Shown: piece by piece, positions 12,517 to 42,442 of the stretch
Layout of the letters: every line of letters starts with the position of its first letter
How positions within the stretch are numbered: the first letter of the stretch is position 1
NCBI GenBank assembly: GCA_028066355.1
Contig: JALCBP010000003.1
Location: 69,746-133,745 of the forward strand
Length of the DNA stretch: 64,000 nt
From: Pirellulales bacterium
GTDB taxonomy: Bacteria > Planctomycetota > Planctomycetia > Pirellulales > UBA1268
Reading direction: 5' to 3'
The notes under the pieces: generated by a model
What the model was told of the DNA's origin: nothing
Database searches by the model: none
What the model saw: the letters and a program-made list of their open reading frames with translations, nothing else
Translations under genes and position numbers: made by a program

Positions 12517-13455
12517 CTATTCTGCTGAGTCAGTTGGGGCTGCATCAAGATTTACAGGATCCACTTCTGTACTTTCAACTGGATAAAGATCTTCCCAAGT
12601 CGATTGATTCACGCGCCATCGCCACCAATTATTTTCTTTATATCTTTCCAGCAGACCAACAAATCGGTTCAGATCATTGTCTTCCGGGGGGGCAATAAGT
12701 GCATTTTCCGTGAACTGGCGATCTTTATTCACGTCAAGATATACCAATTCATTGTCATCGCGTTGTTTATTGTTGTTTAAATCGACAAATGGTTCACTCC
12801 AAATATTTGGTGGTGGCGGAACAAAAGGGGAAGGAGTTTGCCCTGCTGGCAGGTCTTTTGGTTCAGGTGGAAGTGGTTTCTCAGGGTATTGTGGAGTGCC
12901 ATTTTCACTGCTAACGGTCGGCCAAACTTCTCCGTTGAGTAGCAGATTTCGTTTTTCACTATCGGGCTCAATAATGCGTGCGAAGGTTCGTAATAACGGC
13001 GTACCCAAATCGAGTTGGAGTTCCGAGTGGTTTATTTCATAACTTTCCGGAAGTGGCATGAGTGAGAGAGCGATAAGAATACCTCCTGAAGCGATGTAGC
13101 CTGCAGCCCCACCAACAAAAGCGCCACCAATTTTGTCAATCATCGAAAGAAGAGGAATCGATTCACTAGAGATATATTTTTCGACGAGCATGTGAACACC
13201 AACAGTTGTTCCTATCAACAGAATTAATACAGCGATGGGAAACGCGTAGCTAGGAGGCATATCAACGGCAATGAGAACTTCTGTAATCATTGGGGTGAAA
13301 GTTAATGTCACGACAAAGGATACGACAGCCTGCATTCCAGCAAGTACTGATCGAAACATTCCATGCATAAACCCATACGCAATAAAGCCAAGCACAATGG
13401 CAACGGCAAGGAGACTAGCCAACGTTTGAAAAATTCCGGCCAAAGGTAGCATCAT
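12517..13455 (-). CDS. CvpA-like polytopic membrane protein with Pro-rich C-terminal domain
   Basis: The N-terminal ~150 aa hold 4-5 hydrophobic segments, with GF.HG..R and IDKIGGAFVGGAAGYIASGGILIAL resembling the colicin-V-production (CvpA) family. The C-terminal half is soluble and Pro-rich. The gene starts 41 nt downstream of the GspE-like gene. Confidence 0.55.
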   Translation of the reverse strand: MMLPLAGIFQTLASLLAVAIVLGFIAYGFMHGMFRSVLAGMQAVVSFVVTLTFTPMITEVLIAVDMPPSYAFPIAVLILLIGTTVGVHMLVEKYISSESIPLLSMIDKIGGAFVGGAAGYIASGGILIALSLMPLPESYEINHSELQLDLGTPLLRTFARIIEPDSEKRNLLLNGEVWPTVSSENGTPQYPEKPLPPEPKDLPAGQTPSPFVPPPPNIWSEPFVDLNNNKQRDDNELVYLDVNKDRQFTENALIAPPEDNDLNRFVGLLERYKENNWWRWRVNQSTWEDLYPVESTEVDPVNLDAAPTDSAE

Positions 13456-13496
13456 TCGACTTTCTTACGTAATGAAACTTTCATACTGGTGTGACG

Positions 13497-15137
13497 TTAT
13501 TTTGCGACCCGCATAACCTCATTGAGACTTGTAATTCCAGCAACCACTTTTCGAATTCCAGACTGCTTGAGCGTTTTCATTCCAGATTTCCGTCCAGCTT
13601 GTCGTATTTCCTGAATTGATGGTCGACCCACTAACAAGTCTCGTATGTTGGAATCGAAGACAAGCAATTCATGAATTCCGGTACGGCCTCGGTATCCTGT
13701 ATCCAGACATGATGTGCATCCAACCTCCTTATAAAGCGATACTTGCTTTCCAGGAGGAAGACCAAGTTTTTGCAAAAATTCAGTGGGAGGGGTGTATGCT
13801 TCTTTACACCTTTTACAGAGTACTCGTAGAAGACGCTGTGCGAGTACAGCTGAAACTGACGACTGTATCAGTGTTGTATCTATTCCGATATCAAGAAGCC
13901 GAGTGATTGTCGTAGCTGAGTCGTTCGCGTGCAGGGTTGAAAAAACAAAATGTCCAGTCAGTGCAGCCTGCATGGCAATTTCAGCAGTTTCTTTATCTCG
14001 AATTTCTCCGACAAGAATAACATCCGGATCTTGCCTCAGAGTGGACCGAAGAATATTGGCAAATGTGAGTTCTGCAGCAACATTGACAGCAGTCTGAGAG
14101 ATGTTATCGAGTCGATATTCAATCGGATCCTCAATGGTGACAATATTTTTTGAAAAGACATCAAGTTCACCTAATGCCGTGTAGAGGGTCGTCGTTTTGC
14201 CTGATCCTGTAGGGCCACAAACGAGCATCATGCCATGGGGTTGGTGAATAATCTGACGCATTTTCTTTGTGACAGACTCACTCATGCCGATGCCTTCGAG
14301 ACCGTTTTTTACGATACCGCCATCCGAATCGAGGAGCCGCAGAGCCATTTTTTCACCAAAGTTTGTCGGGCCCGAGGCTGCCCGGATGTCGAATTTGCGG
14401 CCTTCGAAGAGGACTGCAAATGTGCCGTCCTGTGGACGTCGTCGCTCGGCGATATCCATATCAGAGAGCACTTTCAGAGCAGAAATCGAAGACTTCCCTT
14501 CTGCAGCCCAGAGTGTCGTGAGATTCTGCATGACACCGTCAACTCGACAACGCACAGCCATCTCCTCACCACTTTTTGGTTCAAAGTGTATGTCAGTGGC
14601 TCCGTTCTTAATTGCCTTTTCAAACAAGTCCTGGACAACACGAACAGCTTTCGATGCAGCCCGATCCATTCCTTTTCCCTGCCCCTCAATTGGTGAACCA
14701 TCTTTTTTCAAGAGGACAACAGAACTGTCTTGCTTGCTGGAAGAAAGTTGTTTCATTGATCTGTCGAGGAGAGACTCAACGTCATCAATCCCTAGGCTTT
14801 GAGCAAGCTTGATCAAAACCTTTTTCAAAAAGGCAACACACAAGATACGTTCTTGCGCCGGTGCCTTCTTGTCTCTTGTAAAGGTGTAGAAAAAGAGAGC
14901 AGCAATAAATCCAACAGCAAAAACAGGAGTTGCGGAAAGCCCCCACATAACAGTTACTAGGAAAAAGACAGCACCAAAACAGACAGAAGCTAATGGCCAC
15001 GACGACTCACCAAAAATCAGCTCAGAGTCAGAGGCTATCCATACAGAGGCAGATGCCCATATGACGCTGAGCAAAACCCATAGGCCACCAAGCCAGAAGA
15101 TGCGGGTCAGGTTATCCGGGTTAATCCAAAAATCCAT
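13497..15137 (-). CDS. GspE/PilB-family secretion ATPase with N-terminal transmembrane anchor
   Basis: Walker A VCGPTGSGKTTTLY, GEIRD, STLHAN, and the tetracysteine CKRC...CTSC typical of GspE/PilB. Residues 1-90 form three hydrophobic helices instead of the usual soluble N1 domain. Confidence 0.85.
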   Translation of the reverse strand: MDFWINPDNLTRIFWLGGLWVLLSVIWASASVWIASDSELIFGESSWPLASVCFGAVFFLVTVMWGLSATPVFAVGFIAALFFYTFTRDKKAPAQERILCVAFLKKVLIKLAQSLGIDDVESLLDRSMKQLSSSKQDSSVVLLKKDGSPIEGQGKGMDRAASKAVRVVQDLFEKAIKNGATDIHFEPKSGEEMAVRCRVDGVMQNLTTLWAAEGKSSISALKVLSDMDIAERRRPQDGTFAVLFEGRKFDIRAASGPTNFGEKMALRLLDSDGGIVKNGLEGIGMSESVTKKMRQIIHQPHGMMLVCGPTGSGKTTTLYTALGELDVFSKNIVTIEDPIEYRLDNISQTAVNVAAELTFANILRSTLRQDPDVILVGEIRDKETAEIAMQAALTGHFVFSTLHANDSATTITRLLDIGIDTTLIQSSVSAVLAQRLLRVLCKRCKEAYTPPTEFLQKLGLPPGKQVSLYKEVGCTSCLDTGYRGRTGIHELLVFDSNIRDLLVGRPSIQEIRQAGRKSGMKTLKQSGIRKVVAGITSLNEVMRVAK

Positions 15138-15620
15138 TATGATTTTTCTAAGGGCATGTTAAGAAAAAAGTACTACGCATTTGAATGTGTAAATGAGTTG
15201 TTGAACCATGCACTACTTGGTGTTATTGAAAATGTATTGCAATGTCGTTTTGATTCATACCATAAATTATTCGGTAAAAGTCTGGAATGAACGTTCTCAC
15301 CCAACCAACAAAATAGTAGATTCGATATATTGTCAATACAACCTTCAAGAAACCTTCGATTGTGAAAAGAATAATTCTATTGTAGTAAACCACGACTACC
15401 TACGTGTTGACCGCCTTTTCTGATCGTGGATGTTTCTATGTAGCAGCCATGCATGTTGATGAGTTTTTAACTAGCACCCGACCAAAGTAAGATAATAATA
15501 GAGTCACAAAAGAGTGAACATTCCACTACACCGAATGAGAACTCATTGAAAACGACACTTTCGTTCCTCGGCGACTTTTTGTCGCGTAATTGCCCCATGA
15601 TATTCTGTTAAAAAACGTTG

Positions 15621-18351: not shown

Positions 18352-18999
18352 ATGACCATGTCCTCTGATTCAGCCGAACCGTCAGATCCCCCACCACAAA
18401 CGTTGATTCTCCTTGATCGCGTTCGACAGGGGGACACTGCGGCTGTGAACGGACTGCTTGAGAGGCACAGAGCGGCAATCCGCCGGATGATTGATCAGCG
18501 TCTCGATCGCGTTGTCCGCAAACGTGTTGATGCGAGTGACATTGTTCAAGATGTTCTCGTGGAGGCAAATCGAAGATTGGGAGACTATCTAACCAATCCC
18601 ACAATGCCATTTCAGTTATGGCTTCGGCATATGGCTCGCGATCGAGTTATTGATGCCCATCGAAGACATAGAGTGGCGGGTACGCGTAGTCTGGATAAGG
18701 AGGTATCGCTGGATTCGCCAGTGGATACAGATCATTCACAAACAAATCTAGCTCAGAAGATTGCGGATACAGAACTTACACCAGCCGCAGTCGCAACATG
18801 GCATGAACTTGAGCAACGTTTTGCGACCGCTGTGGAAAAGCTTGATGAAATAGATCGCCAGATTGTCTTGCTGCGACATTTTGAACACCTCTCCACGGGA
18901 GATGTGGCAGAGGTTCTAGGGCTTACAAAGCCAGCAGCAGGCATGAGATATATGAGAGCAATGCGACGACTCAGAGTGTTACTCGGTGATGCAAGCTGA
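18352..18999 (+). CDS. ECF-family RNA polymerase sigma factor
   Basis: 215 aa. Region 2 (DASDIVQDVLVEANRRL) and region 4 HTH (LSTGDVAEVLGLTKPAAGMRYMRAMRRLR). Confidence 0.85.
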   Translation: MTMSSDSAEPSDPPPQTLILLDRVRQGDTAAVNGLLERHRAAIRRMIDQRLDRVVRKRVDASDIVQDVLVEANRRLGDYLTNPTMPFQLWLRHMARDRVIDAHRRHRVAGTRSLDKEVSLDSPVDTDHSQTNLAQKIADTELTPAAVATWHELEQRFATAVEKLDEIDRQIVLLRHFEHLSTGDVAEVLGLTKPAAGMRYMRAMRRLRVLLGDAS

Positions 19000-19098
19000 C
19001 TTTGAAAACAAGATATCGTCAATTACATATGGAATGCCTACTATCCTTTTATTCATGTGAAAATTAACTTTGTATATCTATAAACAGCAAACAGCCTC

Positions 19099-20817
19099 GT
19101 GCAGAAAATAGACAACAATAATAATTTGGGTGAGGAAGAACTCTCTTTAGAAGCTGAAGAGAGACTGGCAGTTTTACTGGAGGACTTGACAACAGGGCCA
19201 GTCGATCAAGCTCATATGCGGCTTGAGAAGCTTTGTCTTCAACACGCCGATTTAGCAGGACATCTCCGAGAATTATTTGCGACGGTATCTGTGACGGATG
19301 CTGTGGCGATGGAGTCCACGATTATCATGGGTGATGATCGTAGAGGAGAATCTGCTGCGGAACAGAAAGGCACCGGACCATTTATTACGGAGGGGTTTGT
19401 ACCTGGTGTTTCTTCGCTACCGGCCCAATTCGGGGAGTACGAACTTCTCGAGGAGATCGGTCGTGGCGGTATGGGAATTGTCTATCGTGCGGTACAAAAA
19501 AGTCTTCAGAGAGTTGTTGCAGTAAAGATGCTCTTGCGTCGTGACCTTGCAAGTCACGCAGACCTTACACGCTTTCGCAGTGAGGCTGAGGCAGCTGCCC
19601 AACTCGATCATCCTGGCATTGTCTCTATTTTCGAAGTTGGAGAATATCAAGGTCACCCGTTTTATTCGATGAAATATATCGAAGGAACGACCCTTTCAAA
19701 ACGATTACAAAATGGACCAATTCCACCGAGAGAAGGTGCACAAATTTTACTTTGTGTAGCTGAAGCTGTTCAGGCTGCACATACGCGAGGGGTCCTTCAC
19801 CGGGATCTGAAACCATCAAATATTCTTATAGATCTAGCAGGCAAGCCGCATGTCTCTGATTTTGGTTTGGCAAAGAGACTTGAAGGCAACCAGACGATGA
19901 CGCACACGGGTGCAATTCTTGGTACACCGTGTTATATGTCGCCGGAGCAGGCCGCTGGGAGTCGCGGAGACGTTGGGCCGGCGAGTGATGTGTGGAGTCT
20001 TGGTGCGATCCTTTACCAAGTACTTGTAGATAGGCCACCATTTCAGGCATCGAGTCCAATGGATACATTACTCGCTGTACTGGAAGTTGATCCACCTCTC
20101 CCTCGCTCAATTAATCGCCAAGTGAATCGTGATCTGGAAATGATCGCCCTTAAGACGCTTCAGAAGCCGCAGGATTTACGATATGCGTCAGCAGCAGACT
20201 TAGCCAAGGATCTTCGCGCATTTCTGGCGAGTGAACCTATTGCAGCTCGTCAGGGTGGAGTTCTCGATGTTGTTTCCCGACTGCTTCGAGAAACACACCA
20301 TGCCGTTGTTTTGGAGAATTGGGGACTTCTCTGGATGTGGCATTCAGTTGTAGTTCTTATTCTATCAGTTATTACAGATGTTCTCGCCTGGCAGGGAGTC
20401 GAAAACCGCTGGCCGTATGTTGTTCTGTGGACAGGTGGTCTTGCCTTATGGGCACCCATCTTTTGGGCACTTCGTCACAGAGCTGGTCCGGTAACAGCCG
20501 TTGAACGACAAGTTGCTCATATTTGGGGAGGCACCATGATTGCGAGCATGCTGCTTTTTTCTGTTGAGGAGTTGCTTGGCTTACCCGTCCTTAAACTTTC
20601 ACCAGTTCTCGCCTTACTGGCCGGACTAATGTTTTTCGCGAAAGCAGGAATACTTTCTGGAGTTTTTTACATTCAGTCGATTTGCCTGTTTGCTACAGGT
20701 TTAATCATGTGTGGACTTCCTCAGTTTCAGCATATTCTCTTTGGGCTGGTAAGTGGCGGCTGCTTTTTCATCCCAGGGTTGAAATACTATCGACAACTGA
20801 CAGAGTCTGAGCGATAG
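19099..20817 (+). CDS. Ser/Thr protein kinase with C-terminal six-helix membrane domain
   Basis: Hanks motifs GRGGMGIVYRA, VAVKML, HRDLKPSNIL, DFGLAK and SPEQ. The last ~190 aa contain about six hydrophobic segments. The GTG start is as listed; the exact start is uncertain. Confidence 0.9.
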   Translation: MQKIDNNNNLGEEELSLEAEERLAVLLEDLTTGPVDQAHMRLEKLCLQHADLAGHLRELFATVSVTDAVAMESTIIMGDDRRGESAAEQKGTGPFITEGFVPGVSSLPAQFGEYELLEEIGRGGMGIVYRAVQKSLQRVVAVKMLLRRDLASHADLTRFRSEAEAAAQLDHPGIVSIFEVGEYQGHPFYSMKYIEGTTLSKRLQNGPIPPREGAQILLCVAEAVQAAHTRGVLHRDLKPSNILIDLAGKPHVSDFGLAKRLEGNQTMTHTGAILGTPCYMSPEQAAGSRGDVGPASDVWSLGAILYQVLVDRPPFQASSPMDTLLAVLEVDPPLPRSINRQVNRDLEMIALKTLQKPQDLRYASAADLAKDLRAFLASEPIAARQGGVLDVVSRLLRETHHAVVLENWGLLWMWHSVVVLILSVITDVLAWQGVENRWPYVVLWTGGLALWAPIFWALRHRAGPVTAVERQVAHIWGGTMIASMLLFSVEELLGLPVLKLSPVLALLAGLMFFAKAGILSGVFYIQSICLFATGLIMCGLPQFQHILFGLVSGGCFFIPGLKYYRQLTESER

Positions 20818-21697: not shown

Positions 21698-22561
21698 CTA
21701 AGGTCGATCGTCACCAATCGTATCACCACTGTTGCAAGTGGCCAAAGCTCGCAGCGTAGCTTTGCTAATGGTGTTGGACATAAAGCCACTTGAACCATCT
21801 GCCAAGCAGTATCCATTTACGCCACCAGCGTGTGGTGAACTTGGGAATGCCTGTGAAACAGTGCCTGGAATAGGTCCAGCCGATGCTCCGGTTGCGAGAC
21901 CGAACGTCGATGCATTTGAGTGACCTTCCCAGTAGTTTTCGTTGAAGTTTTCTTCAACGATCATGAGGGTGTTACTTGTGCCATCACGATACGATGCAAA
22001 ACCCTTGTCCTGATACAGGCCAAGACCACCATTGTCGGAAAGAGTTTTGCCACTGAAAGCACCAGAAGCTGTTGCAGATGCACCAGTTTCATCACTGGTT
22101 CCAACGTTGGCCTTGTAAACACTCTGGCCAGCTGTGGTACCAACAAATGAAGGGCAGATCAGCCAATCAACTTCAACAGTTGCATTGGTACCAGTGGGAA
22201 CAGCATAGTTGCCAGCTCCATTGATCGCATTGTAAAGATTGTTCTCTTCACCATATGGAAGAATATTTACAATGTGACTCCAGTGCGTAACACCAGTTAC
22301 TGGATTAGTAACAGTAGAAGCACCAGCTTGGTTAACACCCATTGCACTAGGCAGGAAGTTGTCACCACGACTGGCATGCTTGTCAGCATAGTTGTGTGCA
22401 GCCAAACCTTGTTGCTTCAGTTTGTTTCCACATGAACTGCGACGAGCAGCTTCACGAGCCTGTTGCACAGCTGGCAACAGCAGACCAACAAGAACACCGA
22501 TAATGGCAATAACCACTAGGAGTTCGATGAGGGTAAACCCTCGACGTGACGTAACTGTCAT
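21698..22561 (-). CDS. DUF1559 protein with prepilin-type N-terminal methylation motif
   Basis: [36 protein letters not shown] is a type II secretion/type IV pilin-like leader. The C-terminal SSPHAGGVN...LADGSSGF block is DUF1559-like. GGTGGAGGA lies upstream of the ATG. Confidence 0.85.
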
Positions 22562-36569: not shown

Positions 36570-37604
36570 ATGGGGATGAAAACTGTGAGCCGACGGGGCT
36601 TCACGCTTATCGAACTTCTCGTAGTTATTGCAATTATTGGTGTGCTTGTTGGCCTTCTCCTACCAGCTGTGCAGCAGGCTCGCGAAGCTGCGCGGCGTAA
36701 CAGTTGCGGCAACAACCTCAAACAACTTTCTCTTGGTTGTTTGAATTATGAGTCGACAAACCAAAGCTTTCCTTCTGCTGGAGGACAAGCACAAACATTC
36801 TGGGGCACTGGAGAAATCAACAACCCGGCATCATCCAGAGAAAACGGTGGTTGGGCTTATCAGATTCTTCCCTACACGGAACAAATGAACGTCTATGAAC
36901 TTCGTAAGAGTGGCGGATGGAACGCGATTCTTGATGCCGAGATTCTTGAGCACACATGTCCTTCCCGTGGACTTCGCTTTACAGACAACGGTGCAGACGT
37001 GTTTCATTTAACTGACTATGCAGGCTGCATGACTGCAGAACCTGATTGGGCGGGAGCCGCCCGGGTCTGGGAAAACTGGAAGGCCAATGATCCCAATGAA
37101 GAAGCAAATGTCTGGACAGGTACAATTAAGAAGGGAACGCACAATGCTTGGCTTGGTGGCTCGTCACCAACGTGTGTCCCATATAAACGGGTGAGTTTTG
37201 CTGAAATTACAGATGGTTCAAGTAATACGATACTGCTTGCTGAGAAGTCAGCTTGGGGGCAGAACTATCAGATGACTGGTGGTGGCGCCATGTGGTGGGA
37301 AGATCCAGGTCGTTTTGCACCGAGTGATTGGGGTTCTATTCGTTACTTCGGTACAAATAACTTCGGTACTCCCCGAGGAGATTTTCAGGAGCGTCCTTGG
37401 GGCTGGTGGTTCCAGTATGGACAGGGAAGTAATGGCGAGACACGAATTGTCGAGCAAGGTTTCGGTTCGGCACATCCTGGTGTTTTCTCTGCCAGCATGA
37501 GCGATGGATCAGTAAAAACGATTCCTTTCAATGCTGACATTCAAGTGCTTATCAATCTGGCCAAACGCAACGATGGTAATGTAGCCAGTGCGAATGATCT
37601 GTAG
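36570..37604 (+). CDS. DUF1559 protein with prepilin-type N-terminal methylation motif
   Basis: [37 protein letters not shown] is identical over 37 aa to the paralogue at 21698-22561. The C-terminal GSAHPGVFSASMSDGSVKTIP block is DUF1559-like. AAGGAG lies upstream. Confidence 0.85.
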   Translation: MGMKTVSRRGFTLIELLVVIAIIGVLVGLLLPAVQQAREAARRNSCGNNLKQLSLGCLNYESTNQSFPSAGGQAQTFWGTGEINNPASSRENGGWAYQILPYTEQMNVYELRKSGGWNAILDAEILEHTCPSRGLRFTDNGADVFHLTDYAGCMTAEPDWAGAARVWENWKANDPNEEANVWTGTIKKGTHNAWLGGSSPTCVPYKRVSFAEITDGSSNTILLAEKSAWGQNYQMTGGGAMWWEDPGRFAPSDWGSIRYFGTNNFGTPRGDFQERPWGWWFQYGQGSNGETRIVEQGFGSAHPGVFSASMSDGSVKTIPFNADIQVLINLAKRNDGNVASANDL

Positions 37605-37671
37605 TTGTTCAACATGGGATTACGGTGGCGTCAGTTGTCGTGCTGACGCCACCAACTTACAGGGGAAAAAA

Positions 37672-38196
37672 ATGAATAAAAAGTTTCTGTTGGGTGTTTT
37701 TTCATTGTTATTTGTGATTCCTGGATGTGGTGACGGACGTGCTACTCCGGAACAACGTATACAAAACGCTAATCCGAGTAATGTTTTTCGTCTAACGAAT
37801 CTTTACAACCAGTTCAGCCAAATTCGAAATCGTGGTCCAAAAGACGAGAAAGAGTTCCGTCTTTTCATCGAGAATTTTGGTGACAAAAGGCTAGATCGAA
37901 TGGGTGTGTCTTTAGACAATCTTGACAACCTATTCGTGAGCGAAAGAGATTCCCAAAAATTTGACATCGCATATGGAGAGAGGCCGAAACGCGAAAAGGG
38001 TGTTACGGAAGACCCGGGAGATCTGGATGAAGGAAAAACGCTGTCTCGGGAGGAGAGAGAAAAAGGTCCTTCATTGGCATCACTTGGGTTGCCAGTAATT
38101 TTTGAGACAACTGGCGTTGATGGAAAAAAGAACGTTGGCTTTCTCGGAAGCCGTGTTGTTCGTGAGCTGACAGAAGCGGAAATTAGTTCACTTTGA
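37672..38196 (+). CDS. Small lipoprotein (hypothetical)
   Basis: The ATG at 37672 is preceded by AGGGGAAAAAA. The leader MNKKFLLGVFSLLFVIPGCGDG has a lipobox. The mature part is charged and Lys/Glu-rich. The listed ORF start at 37588 overlaps the upstream gene and is less likely. Confidence 0.55.
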   Translation: MNKKFLLGVFSLLFVIPGCGDGRATPEQRIQNANPSNVFRLTNLYNQFSQIRNRGPKDEKEFRLFIENFGDKRLDRMGVSLDNLDNLFVSERDSQKFDIAYGERPKREKGVTEDPGDLDEGKTLSREEREKGPSLASLGLPVIFETTGVDGKKNVGFLGSRVVRELTEAEISSL

Positions 38197-38403: not shown

Positions 38404-41400
38404 ATGAGCATTGCCAATAATCAGAGATCAGAACGGTCTCCAGAAAAAATTGGTACTACCACAAATAACGAGGAACCGTATCTCAGCTATGTTTTGCCAG
38501 GAGAGACTGGTAATAGCTTTGCTAACATTAAAGCGGTAGATCAGATTCCTCCATTTCTCATGACGGTACTTAGCAGTGATGATCACTGGATGTTTCTTTA
38601 TAGTAACGGTGCAGTGACATGTGGACGGAAAAATGCAGACCATGCCTTGTTTCCGTACTACCCAGCGGATGCTCTATTGGCTCTCAAAAATGCAGTAGGG
38701 CCGAAGACGATAATTTGGGTTCATCGCGATGAAGACGTTACCTGCTGGGAACCCTTTGGAGAGCAAGAAAGTCTTTTCCATGTTGACCGTGAACTCTCCA
38801 AAAATTTGATTGGTGACAAGGTCTGTTTCCAAGAGCACAATGAAACACTTGGGTTAAGTTTCTGGTATGAGTGGTCAGTAAGCGCCCGTTATGGTTTTGT
38901 GCGCACTGCTGGAATAACGAACCATAATGAGCAGGACTGTAGAGTAACGGTCTGCGATGGTGTCCACGGAATACTGCCAGCGGGTGTTGGGCATATTTTT
39001 CAGCAGCGATACAGCAACCTCGCTGATGCATATAAACAATCTGAACTCATCCAGGGTTTAGGAGTGAGTGTTCATTCGTTGAGTTCAATACCAGTTGACC
39101 GGCCCGAAGCCAGTGAAGCTTTGCGGAGTACTGTAGCTTGGACTCCGTCGTCGAGTCCGTCAACGAAGTTTCTCCTCTCAGATGATCAAATTAATCTGTT
39201 TCGTGATGGGATGACTGTCAGGACTGAGTGCACAAAGCGTGGGGTAAAGCCAGCCTTCTACAGGGTCGACGAATATAGTTTGTCTGCTGACGAGAACATA
39301 GAATGGAATATTGTTTGTGATGTCGCTGTTGATGCTTGTGACCTTCACGATCTACGTCGCTCACTGCAGAAAGGCAATATCTCAGATGTGAGTATTAAGG
39401 ACGATATATCACAAACCAATGCTGAGTTACATGCATTTGCAGGCCGAGTTGATGGACTTCAGTACTCAGGAGACGAGGCAGAGTCTCATCGTCACCTTTC
39501 GAATGCGTTACTAAACATTATGCGAGGCGGCATTCCACTTGATGGGTACACTATACGACGGAATGATTTTTTACGGCATGTAGAAAAGCGGAATAAAGAC
39601 TGCTTTAGAGAGAACAGAAACTGGTTGGAAATACTCCCGCAATCGCTCCAAAAAAGTGAACTTCTGGATGAGTGTAGGAGGCAGAGTTGTAAAGATATTG
39701 ATCGAATTGCTACTGAGTTTTTACCTCTTACTCTAAGCAGACGTCACGGTGACCCATCAAGGCCCTGGAATAGTTTCTCTATTCCGTCGCGGAATAAAGA
39801 TGGTGAGAGACAAATCGGTTTTGAGGGCAACTGGAGAGATGTCTTTCAAAATTGGGAAGCGCTCGCCGATTCTTTTCCTCAACTACTGGAGGGAATGGTT
39901 TATCGGTTCGTAAATGCGTCCACAGTCGATGGGTATAATCCATACCGTATCCAACTTGATGGTATCGATTGGGAACAGCCTGACCCGAATGATCCTTGGG
40001 CAACGATTGGGTACTGGGGCGATCATCAAATTATTTATTTGCATCGTTTGCTCTCACGTTACAGGAACTACTTTCCAGAAAATCTCAGGCAAGATTTAAC
40101 CGCTGATCGGTGTGTGTATGTTGATGTGCCCTACCGACTCAAGCCATTTGAAGAGATTCTAAAAACGCCAGGTGATACAGTAATTTTTGACGCTGCGGCG
40201 AATGATTCGCTTCGACGGAACATACAGTCGAGTGGATCAGATGCAGTCCTTGTGAGAAACGTTGATAAGAAGATTCATTATGTGTCACTCGCCGAGAAGT
40301 TACTGCTAACATCCCTGGTGAAGGTTTCAAATTTTGTTCCCGGGGCAGGGATCTGGCTTAGTACACAGCGACCCGAGTGGAACGATGCCCTAAATGCACT
40401 TGCGGGTAAGGGCGCATCTGTTATTACGGCATGCCACTTAAAGGTTTTTCTTGAGAGACTTGATGAACTGTTTGAGGACGTGAGTGAAAAAAGTATTCGA
40501 ATCTCTTATGAAGTTTCTCAATTTCTGCAATCCATTATATCGGTTCTTGATGGTTGCAGACTGTTTTCTGGTAGAACGATAGATTCGATAACGCGTCGAT
40601 TTACTTTAGCTGGCCTACAAAAAGCTGCAGAGACTTATAGGGAAACGGTGTACAGTGGTTTCTCTGGTAAGAGAACCGATGTTGCTATAGCAGATATTCG
40701 GCGGTTCTGTCTCAGAGCGATTCATGTCCTTGAGGAGACGATACGAGGTAACCGGCGTTCGGATGGTCTTTATGAATCCTACAATTGGGTCTGTGTGGGT
40801 GATGAGGCAATTCATATTGCTCCAGTTGGGCTTATGTTAGAGGGTCAAGTAGCGATTCTGGAGTCCAATGTGCTTTGCCAAAAAGAAGTTGTTGAACTTC
40901 TGAATGCCTTGGAAAAAAGTGATCTGTATCGTCCTGACCAAGACAGTTATTTGTTGTACCCGAACCAAGCAGAAAAAAAGTTTTCTGAAAAAAATCAGAT
41001 TCCTCAAGAGTGGTTTAAAAATAATTCAATAGCACGAAGAGTGATTGATGCTGGGGGCTGTGACCTGCTCTGCCAAAACGAAGATGGGGGATTGCATTTT
41101 GCGAGTGATCTCCGAAACAATGCCGATCTGAATGCGAAGATAGACTTGTGGAATAACACAGAGAACCAGTGGGAATTTACACAAGAGGATCGCAGGCAAA
41201 TATCAAATCTTTGGGAAGCCGTCTTCCACCATGAAACTTTTTCTGGAAGAGCTACAAATTTTTATGCATATGAAGGCCTTGGAAGTATTTATTGGCACAT
41301 GGTTTCAAAGCTTGTCCACGCAGTTGCCCAACAAATTCAAACAAGACAGTTTCGAGGTGAGCCAGTAATTCCAGAACTTAAAGAACACTTCTTTAAGATT

Positions 41401-41898
41401 CGAAATGGTGTTTGGAAAAGTAAATCTGTTCGCTCGTATGGTGCCTTTCCCTCAGATCCTTATTCACATACACCAGCTCATGCAGGTGCCCAGCAACCAG
41501 GTATGACAGGACAGGTAAAAGAAGATTTACTTACACGACTACTAGAACTCGGTATTGTTATTTGTGAAGGCCGTATTTATTTTGAAAATGTAATTCTGGA
41601 TCACTCTGAATTCCAAAGCATGCCGGGGCAGTTTCAATATTACGATGTTGACGGGAATCGAGCCAGCATTGATCTTGATGCTGGATTATTTGGATTTACG
41701 TTTTGCCAGGTCCCGATAATTTACGCAACTAATGGTCGAGGCCGGGGTATTCGGATTATATCACGATCAGGCGGAGAGGTGATTCGAAACCGTATGCGTC
41801 TGACAAAGCAGGAGTCAGAGGCGATCTTCAATCGCACGGGTAACATTGTAAGAATTGATGTGGGTGTCGAGTGCCCGCAGGGTGATGGTAGAGGCTGA
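38404..41898 (+). CDS. 1164-aa leaderless protein, putative GH94-like (alpha/alpha)6 glycoside phosphorylase/hydrolase-fold enzyme
   Basis: Long uninterrupted ORF with no signal peptide. EWNDALNALAGKGASV (nt 40375-40422) resembles the catalytic DWND..N....GKGESV block of GH94 enzymes as I recall it. GNWRDVFQNWE (nt 39826-39858) resembles their RD..Q block. The ORF call is firm. The fold and function call is tentative. Confidence 0.5.
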   Translation: MSIANNQRSERSPEKIGTTTNNEEPYLSYVLPGETGNSFANIKAVDQIPPFLMTVLSSDDHWMFLYSNGAVTCGRKNADHALFPYYPADALLALKNAVGPKTIIWVHRDEDVTCWEPFGEQESLFHVDRELSKNLIGDKVCFQEHNETLGLSFWYEWSVSARYGFVRTAGITNHNEQDCRVTVCDGVHGILPAGVGHIFQQRYSNLADAYKQSELIQGLGVSVHSLSSIPVDRPEASEALRSTVAWTPSSSPSTKFLLSDDQINLFRDGMTVRTECTKRGVKPAFYRVDEYSLSADENIEWNIVCDVAVDACDLHDLRRSLQKGNISDVSIKDDISQTNAELHAFAGRVDGLQYSGDEAESHRHLSNALLNIMRGGIPLDGYTIRRNDFLRHVEKRNKDCFRENRNWLEILPQSLQKSELLDECRRQSCKDIDRIATEFLPLTLSRRHGDPSRPWNSFSIPSRNKDGERQIGFEGNWRDVFQNWEALADSFPQLLEGMVYRFVNASTVDGYNPYRIQLDGIDWEQPDPNDPWATIGYWGDHQIIYLHRLLSRYRNYFPENLRQDLTADRCVYVDVPYRLKPFEEILKTPGDTVIFDAAANDSLRRNIQSSGSDAVLVRNVDKKIHYVSLAEKLLLTSLVKVSNFVPGAGIWLSTQRPEWNDALNALAGKGASVITACHLKVFLERLDELFEDVSEKSIRISYEVSQFLQSIISVLDGCRLFSGRTIDSITRRFTLAGLQKAAETYRETVYSGFSGKRTDVAIADIRRFCLRAIHVLEETIRGNRRSDGLYESYNWVCVGDEAIHIAPVGLMLEGQVAILESNVLCQKEVVELLNALEKSDLYRPDQDSYLLYPNQAEKKFSEKNQIPQEWFKNNSIARRVIDAGGCDLLCQNEDGGLHFASDLRNNADLNAKIDLWNNTENQWEFTQEDRRQISNLWEAVFHHETFSGRATNFYAYEGLGSIYWHMVSKLVHAVAQQIQTRQFRGEPVIPELKEHFFKIRNGVWKSKSVRSYGAFPSDPYSHTPAHAGAQQPGMTGQVKEDLLTRLLELGIVICEGRIYFENVILDHSEFQSMPGQFQYYDVDGNRASIDLDAGLFGFTFCQVPIIYATNGRGRGIRIISRSGGEVIRNRMRLTKQESEAIFNRTGNIVRIDVGVECPQGDGRG

Positions 41899-41929: not shown

Positions 41930-42442
41930 ATGAGGAATAGTGGAATGATTCAAAAATTAAACCGGATGAAACTTCGCTGGTGTGTTCTTCTCGTTCTTGT
42001 AGCAGTTCTATCAAGTGTAAAATCCGATTTGCTGGCACAAGACTTCGGTGATAGTAAATCATCGACTTTGGTGACGAAAGCTTGGGAAGCGTTGGCAGCA
42101 GGTGAGCATGACAATGTTACTGCGTACACAAAGAAGTGTTGTGAGCTCTACCAAGACGAAGCAAAAAAACAGCAGAGTTCACTCTCTGATTTTGCAGGTG
42201 GGGACGACGATAAAATTCACTCATATTGGGCTCTGAATGATGTAGGAACAATCTTATTTGTTCAAGGAGAGTCACTATCGCAGCAAGGAAAATCTTCTGA
42301 GGCAGTGGAGGCTTACAAGAGCCTTGTTGATGACTACGGGTTCTGTCAGTGCTGGGACCCTCAAGGCTGGTTTTGGAAGCCATCAGAAGCTGCAGTAGCA
42401 AAAATAAAGGAATTAGATTTTGACGCACAACTGGATGATTAG
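41930..42442 (+). CDS. Small secreted helical (TPR-like) protein
   Basis: Signal peptide (LRWCVLLVLVAVLSSVKSDLLAQ) followed by a helical repeat-like region (SSEAVEAYKSLVDDYG). The start could be 41930, 41945 or 41966. It begins 31 nt after the giant gene and overlaps the next gene by 8 nt. Confidence 0.45.
   Translation: MRNSGMIQKLNRMKLRWCVLLVLVAVLSSVKSDLLAQDFGDSKSSTLVTKAWEALAAGEHDNVTAYTKKCCELYQDEAKKQQSSLSDFAGGDDDKIHSYWALNDVGTILFVQGESLSQQGKSSEAVEAYKSLVDDYGFCQCWDPQGWFWKPSEAAVAKIKELDFDAQLDD

What the first reader, a model, noticed from the sequence alone, without database searches (positions are those of the whole stretch)
12517..15137. Membrane-anchored GspE/PilB-type ATPase paired with a CvpA-like membrane protein, with no other secretion genes nearby
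Seen: the 546-aa ORF has a complete GspE/PilB ATPase core (Walker A GPTGSGKTTT, GEIRD, STLHAN, tetracysteine CKRC...CTSC). Its first ~90 residues (nt ~14868-15137) are three strongly hydrophobic segments (IFWLGGLWVLLSVIWASASVWIA, LASVCFGAVFFLVTVMWGL, PVFAVGFIAALFFYTF) instead of a soluble N1 domain. A CvpA-like polytopic protein with a Pro-rich soluble tail follows 41 nt downstream on the same strand. No GspF/PilC platform, secretin, pilin or PilM/N/O gene is adjacent.
Established: GspE/PilB/PilT ATPases are normally soluble and are recruited to the membrane by partner proteins.
Inference: a self-anchored secretion-type ATPase, possibly forming a minimal two-gene membrane machine.
Basis: partly seen in the sequence, partly recalled or inferred. 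Interest (0 to 1): 0.55.

Follow-up and report, generated by a model that had tools for sequence, protein, structure and literature searches.

The report
Membrane-anchored GspE-type ATPase with CvpA partner
A planctomycete secretion/pilus-type motor ATPase carries its own membrane anchor and, in every related locus I could evaluate, sits beside a CvpA-family membrane protein where the usual GspF/PilC platform gene would be; I found no description of this conserved module, and its function is unknown.

Summary

**ATPase.** ORF 13497-15137(-) encodes a 546-aa GspE/PilB-class ATPase with intact catalytic motifs and the tetracysteine motif. Residues 1-90 are hydrophobic helices instead of an N1 domain. 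This N-terminal module is conserved across homologues down to about 25% identity (invariant W27, W33, D37, W47, Y84, R88). Translation therefore starts at or near 15137, not at M128.

**Partner.** The CvpA-like gene lies 41 nt downstream. It has four TM helices and a Pro-rich tail that is probably periplasmic.

**Synteny.** A CvpA-like gene lies immediately downstream in all 79 evaluable, non-chimeric related loci (65 metagenomic plus 14 others). These span Pirellulales, Planctomycetaceae and Gemmatales. It occurs in 0 of 78 ordinary PilB/GspE loci. A GspF/PilC platform gene shows the reverse pattern: 60 of 78 ordinary loci, and none of the 89 family sequences (the window plus 88 loci) apart from one chimeric contig.

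**Sister clades.** Some add a true PilT gene upstream, and many of their anchored subunits have degenerate ATPase motifs.

**Best reading (inferred).** This is a self-anchored motor working through a CvpA-family partner that takes the platform's place. It is a new variant of a known kind, and its output is unknown.

The parts
13497..15137 (-). CDS of the 546-aa membrane-anchored GspE/PilB-class ATPase (stop codon included)
   Evidence: ORF. Pfam T2SSE E 1.1e-119. More than 120 full-length homologues.
14868..15137 (-). N-terminal membrane module, aa 1-90. Hydrophobic segments at about aa 13-35, 48-66 and 71-86. Family-wide invariant W27, W33, D37, W47, Y84, R88.
   Evidence: Hydropathy. Conservation. 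AF2 helices 7-41 and 47-91. Profile search finds 65 clusters at 50% identity. Every hit of at least 500 aa also carries the GspE core.
14649..14867 (-). Cytoplasmic linker, aa 91-163. It has a basic juxtamembrane stretch, two helices (101-114, 120-132) and the near-invariant LLKKDGxP motif (aa 142-149). It replaces the N1/GSPII domain.
   Evidence: The NCBIfam GspE profile aligns only from aa 137, which is profile position 84.
13500..14648 (-). N2 plus C-terminal ATPase domains, aa 164-546
   Evidence: Pfam. PDB sequence hits to GspE and PilF/PilB from aa 164. Foldseek match to PilF 5oiu_B: target-normalised TM-score 0.95, rmsd 1.7 A.
14193..14216 (-). Walker A GPTGSGKT (aa 308-315)
   Evidence: Invariant in the window's subfamily.
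13707..13817 (-). Tetracysteine motif CKRC...CTSC (aa 441-477), typical of GspE/PilB assembly ATPases
   Evidence: C441, C444, C474 and C477 are invariant even in members with degenerate ATPase motifs.
13456..13496 (-). 41-nt intergenic spacer between the ATPase and the CvpA-like gene
   Evidence: No terminator- or promoter-like site beyond chance expectation. Spacing ranges from -4 to 169 nt in 12 related loci.
12517..13455 (-). CDS of the 312-aa CvpA-family membrane protein (stop codon included)
   Evidence: ORF. Pfam Colicin_V 55.7 bits. 77 homologues.
13054..13455 (-). CvpA 4-TM domain, aa 1-134
   Evidence: AF2 helices 3-31, 34-63, 68-94, 104-132. Loop charges: loop 1 has 13 K/R and 0 D/E; loop 2 has 1 K/R and 18 D/E.
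12520..13053 (-). C-terminal tail, aa 135-312, probably periplasmic: Pro-rich linker, then a conserved motif region
   Evidence: Conserved over its full length in homologues. No Pfam family. Two homologues continue into cadherin/Big_9 domains. AF2 confidence is low.
12709..12801 (-). Conserved tail motif WSEPFxDxNxNxxxDxxE...LD...D..FT (aa 219-249). The DxNxNxxxDxxE part has the spacing of a Ca2+-binding loop (EF-hand/FG-GAP-like).
   Evidence: Invariant or near-invariant W219, S220, E221, P222, D225, N227, N229, D233, E236, L240, D245, F248, T249. Calcium binding is inferred from the motif only.

Best explanation
**Shown by sequence and comparison**
- The gene encodes a catalytically intact GspE/PilB-class hexameric-type ATPase.
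- The usual soluble N1 (GspL-binding) or GSPII domain is replaced by a conserved hydrophobic module of its own.
- The gene is invariably followed by a CvpA-family gene encoding a 4-TM protein with a long extracytoplasmic-type tail.
- No GspF/PilC platform gene accompanies it in any related locus.

**Inferred**
- The ATPase is tethered directly in the cytoplasmic membrane. The most likely topology is N-out, three TM helices, with the ATPase domains in the cytoplasm.
- It forms a complex with the CvpA-like protein.
- ATP-driven movements of the N2/CTD ring are passed to the CvpA-like protein, which stands in the place normally held by GspF/PilC. The work is delivered to the periplasm through the Pro-rich tail and its Ca2+-loop-like motif.

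**Most likely output**
- Sister clades put a genuine PilT-family ATPase directly upstream of the same pair, and all characterised GspE/PilB/PilT ATPases act on pilin-type filaments.
- I therefore favour assembly or dynamics of a pilin-like fibre. Planctomycetes encode many N_methyl/DUF1559 prepilin-like proteins that could be the substrate.
- A non-filament export or envelope function acting through CvpA is nearly as likely.
For: **ATPase class and integrity**
- Pfam, NCBIfam, PDB sequence search, AF2 and Foldseek all agree. Motifs are intact.

**Anchor is real and ancient**
- It is conserved in full-length homologues.
- The N-terminal profile finds 65 clusters at 50% identity. Every hit of at least 500 aa also carries the GspE core.
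- Named members are Pirellulales, Planctomycetia, Planctomycetaceae and Gemmatales.

**Partner is obligate in gene order**
- A CvpA-like gene lies directly downstream on the same strand, with a gap of -4 to 169 nt where gene calls were available. This holds in 14 loci found by protein look-up or the genome scan.
- It also holds in 65 of 65 evaluable, non-chimeric metagenome loci.
- It holds in 0 of 78 generic PilB/GspE loci, even at E<=10.

**Platform replaced**
- A T2SSF HMM hits 60 of 78 generic loci. It hits none of the 89 family sequences (the window plus 88 loci, 782 kb) other than the chimeric L143.
- The CvpA-like family shows no homology to PilC/GspF (hhalign probability 0.35%).

**Tail is outside the cytoplasm**
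- Loop charges fit that topology, and two homologues carry cadherin domains after the tail.

**Link to filament motors**
- The upstream gene in L005 and L006 scores 382 and 391 bits against TIGR01420 PilT, above the 319 cut-off.
- A PilT-size T2SSE gene is also upstream on the P0166 contig and in L090.

**N-out topology**
- Divergent homologues carry a signal-peptide-like extension before TM1.
Against: - No physical interaction, localisation or activity was tested. Synteny shows functional linkage, not a complex.
- AF2 draws aa 47-91 as one continuous helix rather than a TM2-TM3 hairpin. Loop 1 charges are mixed, 46 K/R against 67 D/E. The topology is therefore unresolved.
- No pilin, prepilin peptidase or secretin gene lies in any of the loci whose gene calls were listed.
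- Many sister-clade members have lost Walker A, Walker B and His-box residues. ATP hydrolysis by the anchored subunit is thus not universally required, and in those clades it may be only a scaffold.
- The CvpA tail could not be modelled (pLDDT below 50) and matches no Pfam family.
- E. coli CvpA has not been linked to any ATPase, and its function is unknown (bioRxiv 10.1101/2020.09.25.314492).
Confidence: 0.5

Rival explanations
1. The anchored ATPase is an extra motor for a canonical type IV pilus or T2SS-like machine encoded elsewhere in the genome. It docks on that machine's PilC/GspF. Its TM module only replaces recruitment by GspL or PilM/N/O. The CvpA-like protein is an accessory or regulatory subunit, not a platform substitute.
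For: - The core is 42-49% identical to ordinary PilB/GspE.
- T4aP genes are commonly scattered over several loci (PMC6668835).
- Planctopirus limnophila has a separate, largely essential T2SS-like operon with two GspE genes, a PilT and a GspF (PMC10632474). Canonical platforms therefore exist in the class.
- PilT neighbours occur in sister clades.
Against: - The partner pattern is strictly exclusive: CvpA-like in all family loci, T2SSF in none; the reverse in generic loci.
- The loss of the N1/GSPII recruitment domain and the gain of a conserved TM module point to a different docking mode.
- I could not inspect whole genomes, so this rival is not excluded.
Confidence: 0.22
2. The pair is not a filament machine. 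The ATPase energises or gates a CvpA-dependent process, such as export of a peptide or small molecule, or envelope-stress sensing. This would extend the E. coli CvpA phenotypes of colicin V production, deoxycholate resistance and sigma-E activation.
For: - CvpA is needed for colicin V secretion and is genetically tied to the sigma-E envelope response (bioRxiv 10.1101/2020.09.25.314492).
- No pilin, peptidase, platform or secretin gene accompanies the pair in any locus.
- The tail has an extracytoplasmic Ca2+-loop-like motif and sometimes cadherin domains, which would suit sensing or binding.
Against: - Every characterised GspE/PilB/PilT-class ATPase with the tetracysteine motif acts on pilin filaments (established knowledge).
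- A true PilT gene is part of the module in sister clades.
- Ordinary CvpA genes are not known to be linked to any ATPase, and none of the 78 control loci has one.
Confidence: 0.23
3. Artefact. The hydrophobic N-terminus is not translated (wrong start), or the fusion and gene pairing result from misassembly.
For: - One related metagenome contig (L143) is chimeric. It is 100% identical to P0060 up to residue 487, then switches to a foreign gspE end followed by gspF.
- No Shine-Dalgarno-like sequence is evident upstream of 15137.
Against: - The same architecture and pairing occur in about 80 independent contigs from many samples and sources.
- The N-terminus is conserved at the protein level, with invariant residues upstream of any alternative start.
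- A stop codon lies 5 codons upstream of the ATG.
Confidence: 0.02

Closest known systems
T2SS ATPase GspE (EpsE/PulE; PDB 4pht, 4ksr, 1p9r)
   Same: - N2 and C-terminal ATPase domains, Walker A/B, Asp and His boxes, and the tetracysteine motif.
- 44% identity over aa 164-546. It is the best NCBIfam (476.9 bits) and best PDB sequence match (E 1.9e-100).
   Different: - Scores below the equivalog cut-off (630).
- Lacks the N1E domain that binds GspL; the profile aligns only from position 84.
- Has an integral membrane module instead.
- Has no gspF or any other gsp gene beside it. A CvpA-family gene takes that position.
Type IVa pilus assembly ATPase PilB / PilF (PDB 5tsh, 5oiu, 5it5)
   Same: - Predicted fold nearly superimposable: target-normalised TM-score 0.92-0.95, rmsd 1.7-2.0 A, 42-43% identity.
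- In sister clades it is paired with a PilT gene, as in pilB-pilT loci.
   Different: - 447 bits against the 675.65 cut-off.
- No GSPII/MshEN N-terminal domain.
- Gene order is pilT, then anchored ATPase, then cvpA, rather than pilB-pilT-pilC.
- No PilC.
GspF/PilC inner-membrane platform proteins (e.g. PulF, reported as a trimeric ion channel, PMC10790770)
   Same: A polytopic inner-membrane protein encoded immediately after the assembly ATPase gene. That is the position the CvpA-like gene holds here.
   Different: - No sequence or profile similarity (hhalign probability 0.35%).
- CvpA-like has 4 TM helices and an extracytoplasmic tail. GspF/PilC have 3 TM helices and two cytoplasmic helical domains.
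- The resemblance is positional only.
CvpA (colicin V production protein, E. coli) and the CvpA-like TM domain of mycobacterial MarP
   Same: - Pfam Colicin_V domain with four TM helices.
- As in MarP, a functional domain is appended on the periplasmic side after TM4. The MarP topology is from my own knowledge. The NCBIfam MarP hit covers only the TM domain (22.2 bits).
   Different: - About twice the length of E. coli CvpA.
- The tail is Pro-rich with a conserved DxNxNxxxDxxE motif and is not a protease.
- It is obligatorily linked to an ATPase gene, which is not known for other CvpA genes.
Membrane-anchored hexameric secretion/translocation ATPases of other superfamilies (VirD4-type coupling proteins, FtsK/SpoIIIE)
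   Same: N-terminal TM helices tether a cytoplasmic hexameric ATPase directly to the membrane (established knowledge, not tested here).
   Different: They belong to a different ATPase superfamily (FtsK/HerA), not PilT/GspE-class. There is no sequence relationship in the anchor. This is an analogy only.

Membership tests
PilT/GspE-class secretion ATPases (Pfam T2SSE PF00437) | T2SSE domain above the Pfam gathering score | tested here: met
   399.9 bits against a cut-off of 24.9, aa 164-543
PilT/GspE-class secretion ATPases (Pfam T2SSE PF00437) | Walker A, Asp box, Walker B and His box intact | tested here: met
   CGPTGSGKTTTL, IVTIEDPIEY, DPDVILVGEIRD, TGHFVFSTLHAND
PilT/GspE-class secretion ATPases (Pfam T2SSE PF00437) | N2 plus CTD bilobed fold | tested here: met
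   AF2 pLDDT 85.2. Foldseek: PilF 5oiu_B target-normalised TM-score 0.95, rmsd 1.7 A; GspE 4ksr_A rmsd 2.8 A. This is a predicted structure, not a solved one.
GspE/PilB assembly-ATPase subgroup | Tetracysteine (zinc-binding type) motif in the CTD, absent from PilT | tested here: met
   C441, C444, C474 and C477 are invariant in the whole family. Metal binding itself was not tested.
T2SS GspE (NCBIfam TIGR02533 equivalog) | Score above the curated equivalog cut-off | tested here: not met
   476.9 bits against 630.25
T2SS GspE (NCBIfam TIGR02533 equivalog) | N1E domain that binds cytoplasmic GspL | tested here: not met
   The alignment starts at aa 137, profile position 84. Residues 1-90 are hydrophobic helices.
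T2SS GspE (NCBIfam TIGR02533 equivalog) | Encoded with gspF and other gsp genes | tested here: not met
   No T2SSF, secretin or GspL/M in the 64-kb window. No T2SSF-like ORF in any of the 87 non-chimeric related loci.
T4aP PilB (NCBIfam TIGR02538 equivalog) | Score above the cut-off and a GSPII/MshEN-type N-terminal domain | tested here: not met
   447 bits against 675.65. No T2SSE_N hit in Pfam.
Type IV filament (TFF) system as defined by Denise et al. 2019 (ATPase + IM platform + major pilin in a cluster) | IM platform (GspF/PilC/TadB family) co-encoded | tested here: not met
   0 T2SSF hits in the window and family loci, against 60 of 78 control loci. The CvpA-like family is not homologous to PilC.
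Type IV filament (TFF) system as defined by Denise et al. 2019 (ATPase + IM platform + major pilin in a cluster) | Major pilin with a class III signal peptide co-encoded | tested here: not met
   The nearest N_methyl genes (DUF1559) are at 21698-22561 and 36570-37604, 6.5 and 21 kb away. None is listed in the called genes of the related loci.
CvpA / Colicin_V family (PF02674) | Colicin_V domain above the gathering score | tested here: met
   55.7 bits against 29.3, aa 15-145. Homologues are annotated CvpA family.
CvpA / Colicin_V family (PF02674) | Four-TM inner-membrane architecture | tested here: met
   AF2 helices 3-31, 34-63, 68-94, 104-132. Hydropathy. Prediction only.
MarP family serine protease (NF033740) | Score above the cut-off and a periplasmic serine protease domain | tested here: not met
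   22.2 bits against 250, and only the TM region aligns. The tail matches no Pfam family.
Functional motor-partner complex (ATPase with CvpA-like protein) | Physical interaction and a shared phenotype | not testable with these tools
   Only conserved gene order is available. No multimer prediction or experiment was possible.

The most novel reading that the evidence does not exclude
Planctomycetia possess a previously undescribed class of inner-membrane machine. In it, a GspE/PilB-type hexameric ATPase is itself an integral membrane protein, and the otherwise universal GspF/PilC platform has been replaced by a CvpA-family protein. In some clades the machine has a PilT partner and a catalytically dead anchored subunit. 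If true, this would give the CvpA family its first mechanistic context, as a transducer of a cytoplasmic motor, more than 30 years after it was named.
Probability: 0.3. Interest if true: 0.8.

Novelty: new variant of a known kind. Interest (0 to 1): 0.62.

Why it matters
- **Challenge to a textbook rule.** GspE/PilB/PilT ATPases are textbook soluble motors that act only through a GspF/PilC-type platform. Here a whole bacterial class has a lineage that is membrane-anchored by its own conserved module, and that has swapped the platform gene for a CvpA-family gene in every evaluable locus. This questions both generalisations.
- **A handle on CvpA.** CvpA proteins are widespread and matter for gut colonisation and bile resistance in pathogens, yet their function is still unknown. 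This module offers a concrete, testable partner for them.
- **Missed by surveys.** TFF-system surveys require ATPase, platform and pilin together, so they miss such pairs by design (PMC6668835). Databases label the ATPase simply as 'GspE/PulE family', 'TadA' or 'hypothetical'.
- **Relevance to planctomycete biology.** The envelope biology of planctomycetes (enlarged periplasm, crateriform structures, budding without FtsZ) is poorly understood. Class-wide conserved membrane motors are good candidates for it.

Tried and rejected
1. **Internal start at M128 or M64.** Rejected, because invariant residues lie upstream of both.

2. **Genome-contig scan with the full-length alignment.** I reused the 78 generic loci as a negative control.

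3. **L056, which fell inside the family in the NJ tree.** It is an FHA-domain PilB from a Phycisphaeraceae MAG with no TM module and no CvpA, so this is long-branch noise. Strict monophyly of the whole family has only 40/100 bootstrap support. The window's subfamily has 97/100.

4. **L143, the single locus with gspF after the anchored ATPase.** It is a chimeric contig. It is 100% identical to P0060 up to residue 487, then switches at the conserved GYKGRTGV motif.

5. **A functional link to lactate utilisation.** In Pirellulales relatives the pair sits between lutBC and lutA. I rejected a functional link because the lut genes are absent in the window and in the divergent clades.

6. **Mapping the family onto Planctopirus limnophila Tn-seq essentiality data (PMC10632474).** I could not identify the orthologue from product names alone.

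7. **Structure of the CvpA tail.** The AF2 model is too poor (pLDDT below 50), and Pfam finds nothing.

8. **Regulatory RNA and promoter/terminator scans around the pair.** No Rfam match, and consensus sites no better than shuffles.

9. **Literature searches.** I searched for a TM-anchored GspE/PilB and for a T2SSE-CvpA association and found nothing relevant. The library holds only open-access papers, so this is not proof of novelty.


Full report
**1. What is in the window**

The ORF at 13497-15137(-) encodes 546 aa.
- Pfam T2SSE covers aa 164-543 (E 1.1e-119).
- NCBIfam ranks GspE first (476.9 bits) and PilB second (447 bits). Both are well below the equivalog cut-offs of 630 and 676. PilT scores only 178 bits.
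- The GspE profile aligns only from aa 137, which is profile position 84. The N1 domain is therefore missing.
- Walker A, Asp box, Walker B, His box and the tetracysteine motif are intact.
- Hydropathy analysis finds three charge-free hydrophobic stretches at about aa 13-35, 48-66 and 71-86.
- A stop codon lies five codons upstream of the ATG at 15137. The next in-frame ATG is M64, inside the hydrophobic region.

The ORF at 12517-13455(-) begins 41 nt after the ATPase stop.
- It matches Pfam Colicin_V at aa 15-145 (55.7 bits against a cut-off of 29.3).
- Its C-terminal 177 residues match no Pfam family.

The neighbours are housekeeping genes:
- rsmG and an S41 peptidase lie upstream.
- sucD/sucC and glycosyltransferase/GDP-sugar genes lie downstream.

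Pfam scans of essentially every ORF of at least 150 aa in the 64 kb found no GspF/PilC, secretin or PilM/N/O. The window is clearly planctomycetal: it carries DUF1559/N_methyl, DUF1501, DUF1553/PSCyt and an ECF sigma factor with a Ser/Thr kinase. The closest database homologues come from marine Pirellulales MAGs and TARA samples.

**2. The N-terminal membrane module is real coding sequence**

- More than 120 homologues of 542-578 aa cover 98-100% of the query at 60-99% identity.
- In an alignment of 16 of them, the first 90 residues contain invariant W15, W20, L23, W27, W33, D37, G43, W47, G66, P71, F73, Y84, R88 and D89.
- A profile of residues 1-165 was searched against 1.84 billion representative proteins. 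It found 65 clusters (E<=1e-3), of which 22 had E<=1e-10.
- Every hit of at least 500 aa also has a GspE-type core behind the module. The shorter hits look like contig-end fragments.
- In members as distant as 21-30% identity, W27, W33, D37, W47, Y84 and R88 remain invariant.
- Translation from an internal Met is therefore excluded.
- Named members come from Pirellulales, Planctomycetia, Planctomycetaceae and Gemmatales MAGs. Sources label them 'GspE/PulE family', 'TadA' or 'hypothetical'.

**3. Structure and topology**

AF2 with 28 sequences gives mean pLDDT 85.2.
- Helices span aa 7-41 and 47-91, followed by two linker helices and a short strand in the conserved LLKKDG motif.
- The N2 and CTD domains follow. 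They superpose on PilF, PilB and GspE structures (target-normalised TM-score up to 0.95, rmsd 1.7 A, 42-44% identity).
- Nothing in the PDB matches residues 1-160.

The stretch after the last hydrophobic segment is strongly basic across the family, with 181 K/R against 63 D/E. This fits a cytoplasmic location, which the ATPase domains require.

I favour an N-out, three-TM topology, for two reasons.
- Several divergent homologues (P0151, P0161, P0170, P0173) carry a signal-peptide-like extension plus 30-60 further residues before TM1. This forces TM2-TM3 to be a hairpin if the ATPase is to stay inside.
- The G66...P71 turn is conserved.

This remains an inference. AF2 draws aa 47-91 as one helix, and the charges of loop 1 are mixed.

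For the CvpA-like protein, AF2 gives four TM helices and an unmodelled tail.
- Loop 1 is basic (13 K/R, 0 D/E) and loop 2 is acidic (1 K/R, 18 D/E).
- Two homologues continue into cadherin/Big_9 domains.
- Together these place the N-terminus and the tail outside the cytoplasm.
- The tail is conserved along its whole length. It contains the invariant motif WSEPFxDxNxNxxxDxxE...D..FT and, further on, VG..ERY...W.
- The DxNxNxxxDxxE spacing matches Ca2+-binding loops. Calcium binding itself was not tested.

**4. The pairing is conserved and exclusive**

Gene calls around homologues at 72, 62, 60, 60, 52, 44, 40, 33, 30, 28 and 26% identity all show a Colicin_V or CvpA-like gene directly downstream on the same strand. 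Where Pfam missed it, BLASTP or a local HMM confirmed it. Gaps range from -4 to 169 nt.

A scan of metagenome contigs with the N-terminal profile added 76 loci.
- 66 of them have enough downstream sequence to judge, and 65 have the CvpA-like gene in place.
- The exception, L143, is a chimeric contig. It is 100% identical to P0060 up to residue 487, then jumps at the conserved GYKGRTGV motif into a foreign gspE end followed by gspF.

The controls were the 78 ordinary PilB/GspE loci returned by the genome scan.
- None has a hit to the CvpA-like HMM, even at E<=10.
- None has the N-terminal module.
- 60 of the 78 have a GspF/PilC gene by a T2SSF HMM.
- The same HMM finds none in the window or in the 87 non-chimeric family loci (about 780 kb in all).

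The CvpA-like family has no detectable homology to PilC/GspF (hhalign probability 0.35%). In gene order, therefore, the CvpA-family protein occupies the slot of the platform protein. This is a replacement, not a divergent copy.

**5. Sister clades add information**

- In L005, L006, the P0166 contig and L090, a PilT-size T2SSE gene sits immediately upstream of the anchored gene.
- The L005 and L006 proteins pass the curated PilT/PilU family threshold, with 382 and 391 bits against 319.
- Many anchored subunits in these clades have lost the Walker A lysine, Walker B and His box but keep the four cysteines and the TM module. Examples are P0151, P0161, P0165, P0166, P0177 and P0148.
- The window's own subfamily is fully intact and forms a well-supported clade (97/100 in an NJ bootstrap). 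Monophyly of the whole family is weakly supported (40/100).

**6. Mechanism**

Shown:
- ATPase class and motif integrity.
- A conserved hydrophobic N-terminal module.
- An obligate gene-order link to a 4-TM CvpA-family protein with a tail of extracytoplasmic type.
- Systematic absence of a GspF/PilC gene.

Inferred:
- The ATPase is self-anchored, and its hexamer would contribute 18 TM helices.
- The conserved W33/D37/W47/Y84/R88 cluster lies at the cytoplasmic face and may form the docking collar.
- The ATPase drives the CvpA-like protein as PilB/GspE drive PilC/GspF, transmitting work to the periplasm.

I put the coupled motor-partner reading at about 0.5.
- Within it, I slightly favour a pilin-type fibre as the output, because of the PilT association, the ATPase class and the abundance of N_methyl/DUF1559 proteins.
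- A non-filament CvpA-type export or envelope function is nearly as likely.
- The main rival is that the ATPase is an extra motor for a canonical machine encoded elsewhere. I could not exclude this without whole genomes.

**7. Comparison with what is known, and novelty**

- The protein belongs to the PilT/GspE ATPase superfamily and to its GspE/PilB assembly-type subgroup.
- It fails the membership tests for GspE proper, PilB proper and a TFF system: no N1 or GSPII domain, scores below the cut-offs, no platform and no pilin.
- The partner belongs to the CvpA family, whose function is still described as largely unknown (bioRxiv 10.1101/2020.09.25.314492).
- Reviews of PilB cofactors and of TFF diversification do not mention transmembrane ATPases, planctomycetes or CvpA.
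- Full-text searches for the combination found nothing. The searchable library is limited to open-access papers.
- I rate the finding a new variant of a known kind, with moderate to high interest. Its value lies in the clean, testable comparative pattern rather than in any demonstrated function.

Noticed in passing
L005:4500-8658, L006:6123-9836, L090:4282-7266, and the P0166 contig (no DNA held): Sister clades carry a three-gene module: a PilT-size T2SSE gene, the TM-anchored GspE-like gene and CvpA. The L005 and L006 proteins pass the curated PilT/PilU threshold. In L006 and on the P0166 contig the module follows a hisF-like gene. Many of the anchored subunits have degenerate Walker A, Walker B and His boxes but keep the tetracysteine motif, so they look like pseudo-ATPase scaffolds.
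   Followed up: partly
L001:5615-11517, L003:5500-11388, L004:505-5938: In Pirellulales relatives the ATPase-CvpA pair sits on the opposite strand between lutC/lutB and lutA, splitting the lactate-utilisation lutABC genes. In the window the lut genes are absent from this position, with rsmG upstream and sucD/sucC downstream.
   Followed up: partly
L143:221-2985: Chimeric metagenome contig. The anchored ATPase is 100% identical to P0060 up to residue 487, then switches at the conserved GYKGRTGV motif to a foreign gspE C-terminus followed by gspF. This is a warning for synteny counts on short contigs.
   Followed up: yes
L056:9383-11221: A Phycisphaeraceae MAG encodes a PilB/GspE-class ATPase with an N-terminal FHA domain and a long acidic linker. 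It is another non-canonical N-terminal architecture in the phylum.
   Followed up: no
window 21698-22561 (-) and 36570-37604 (+): Two DUF1559 proteins with N-terminal prepilin-type methylation motifs (N_methyl). The second is followed by ORFs with no Pfam match at 37588-38196, 38404-41898 (1164 aa) and 41930-42442, which may form an operon.
   Followed up: no
window 18352-20817 (+): An ECF-type sigma factor gene is followed by a Ser/Thr protein kinase whose C-terminal third or so is a polytopic hydrophobic domain. This may be a kinase acting as an anti-sigma-like partner.
   Followed up: no
P0260, P0261 (homologues of window 12517-13455): Two CvpA-like homologues keep the WSEPF...DxNxN motif and then continue into cadherin, Big_9 and He_PIG domains. 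The family's tail is therefore modular and extracytoplasmic.
   Followed up: partly
L007 (CAZDTC010000204.1): A 4.8-kb contig binned as 'Candidatus Kuenenia sp.' carries a 62%-identical orthologue plus the CvpA-like gene. Either the module extends to Brocadiia or the short contig is mis-binned.
   Followed up: no
window 15138-15620: A 483-nt intergenic region lies upstream of the ATPase start. It has no Rfam match and no promoter signal above background. Its role, if any, is unknown.
   Followed up: partly
PMC10632474 (Planctopirus limnophila Tn-seq): P. limnophila has a largely essential T2SS-like operon (Plim_0401-0410: two GspE genes, PilT, GspF and six planctomycete-specific genes). [quoted passage not shown] Which of these, if any, is the orthologue of this family could not be determined.
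   Followed up: partly
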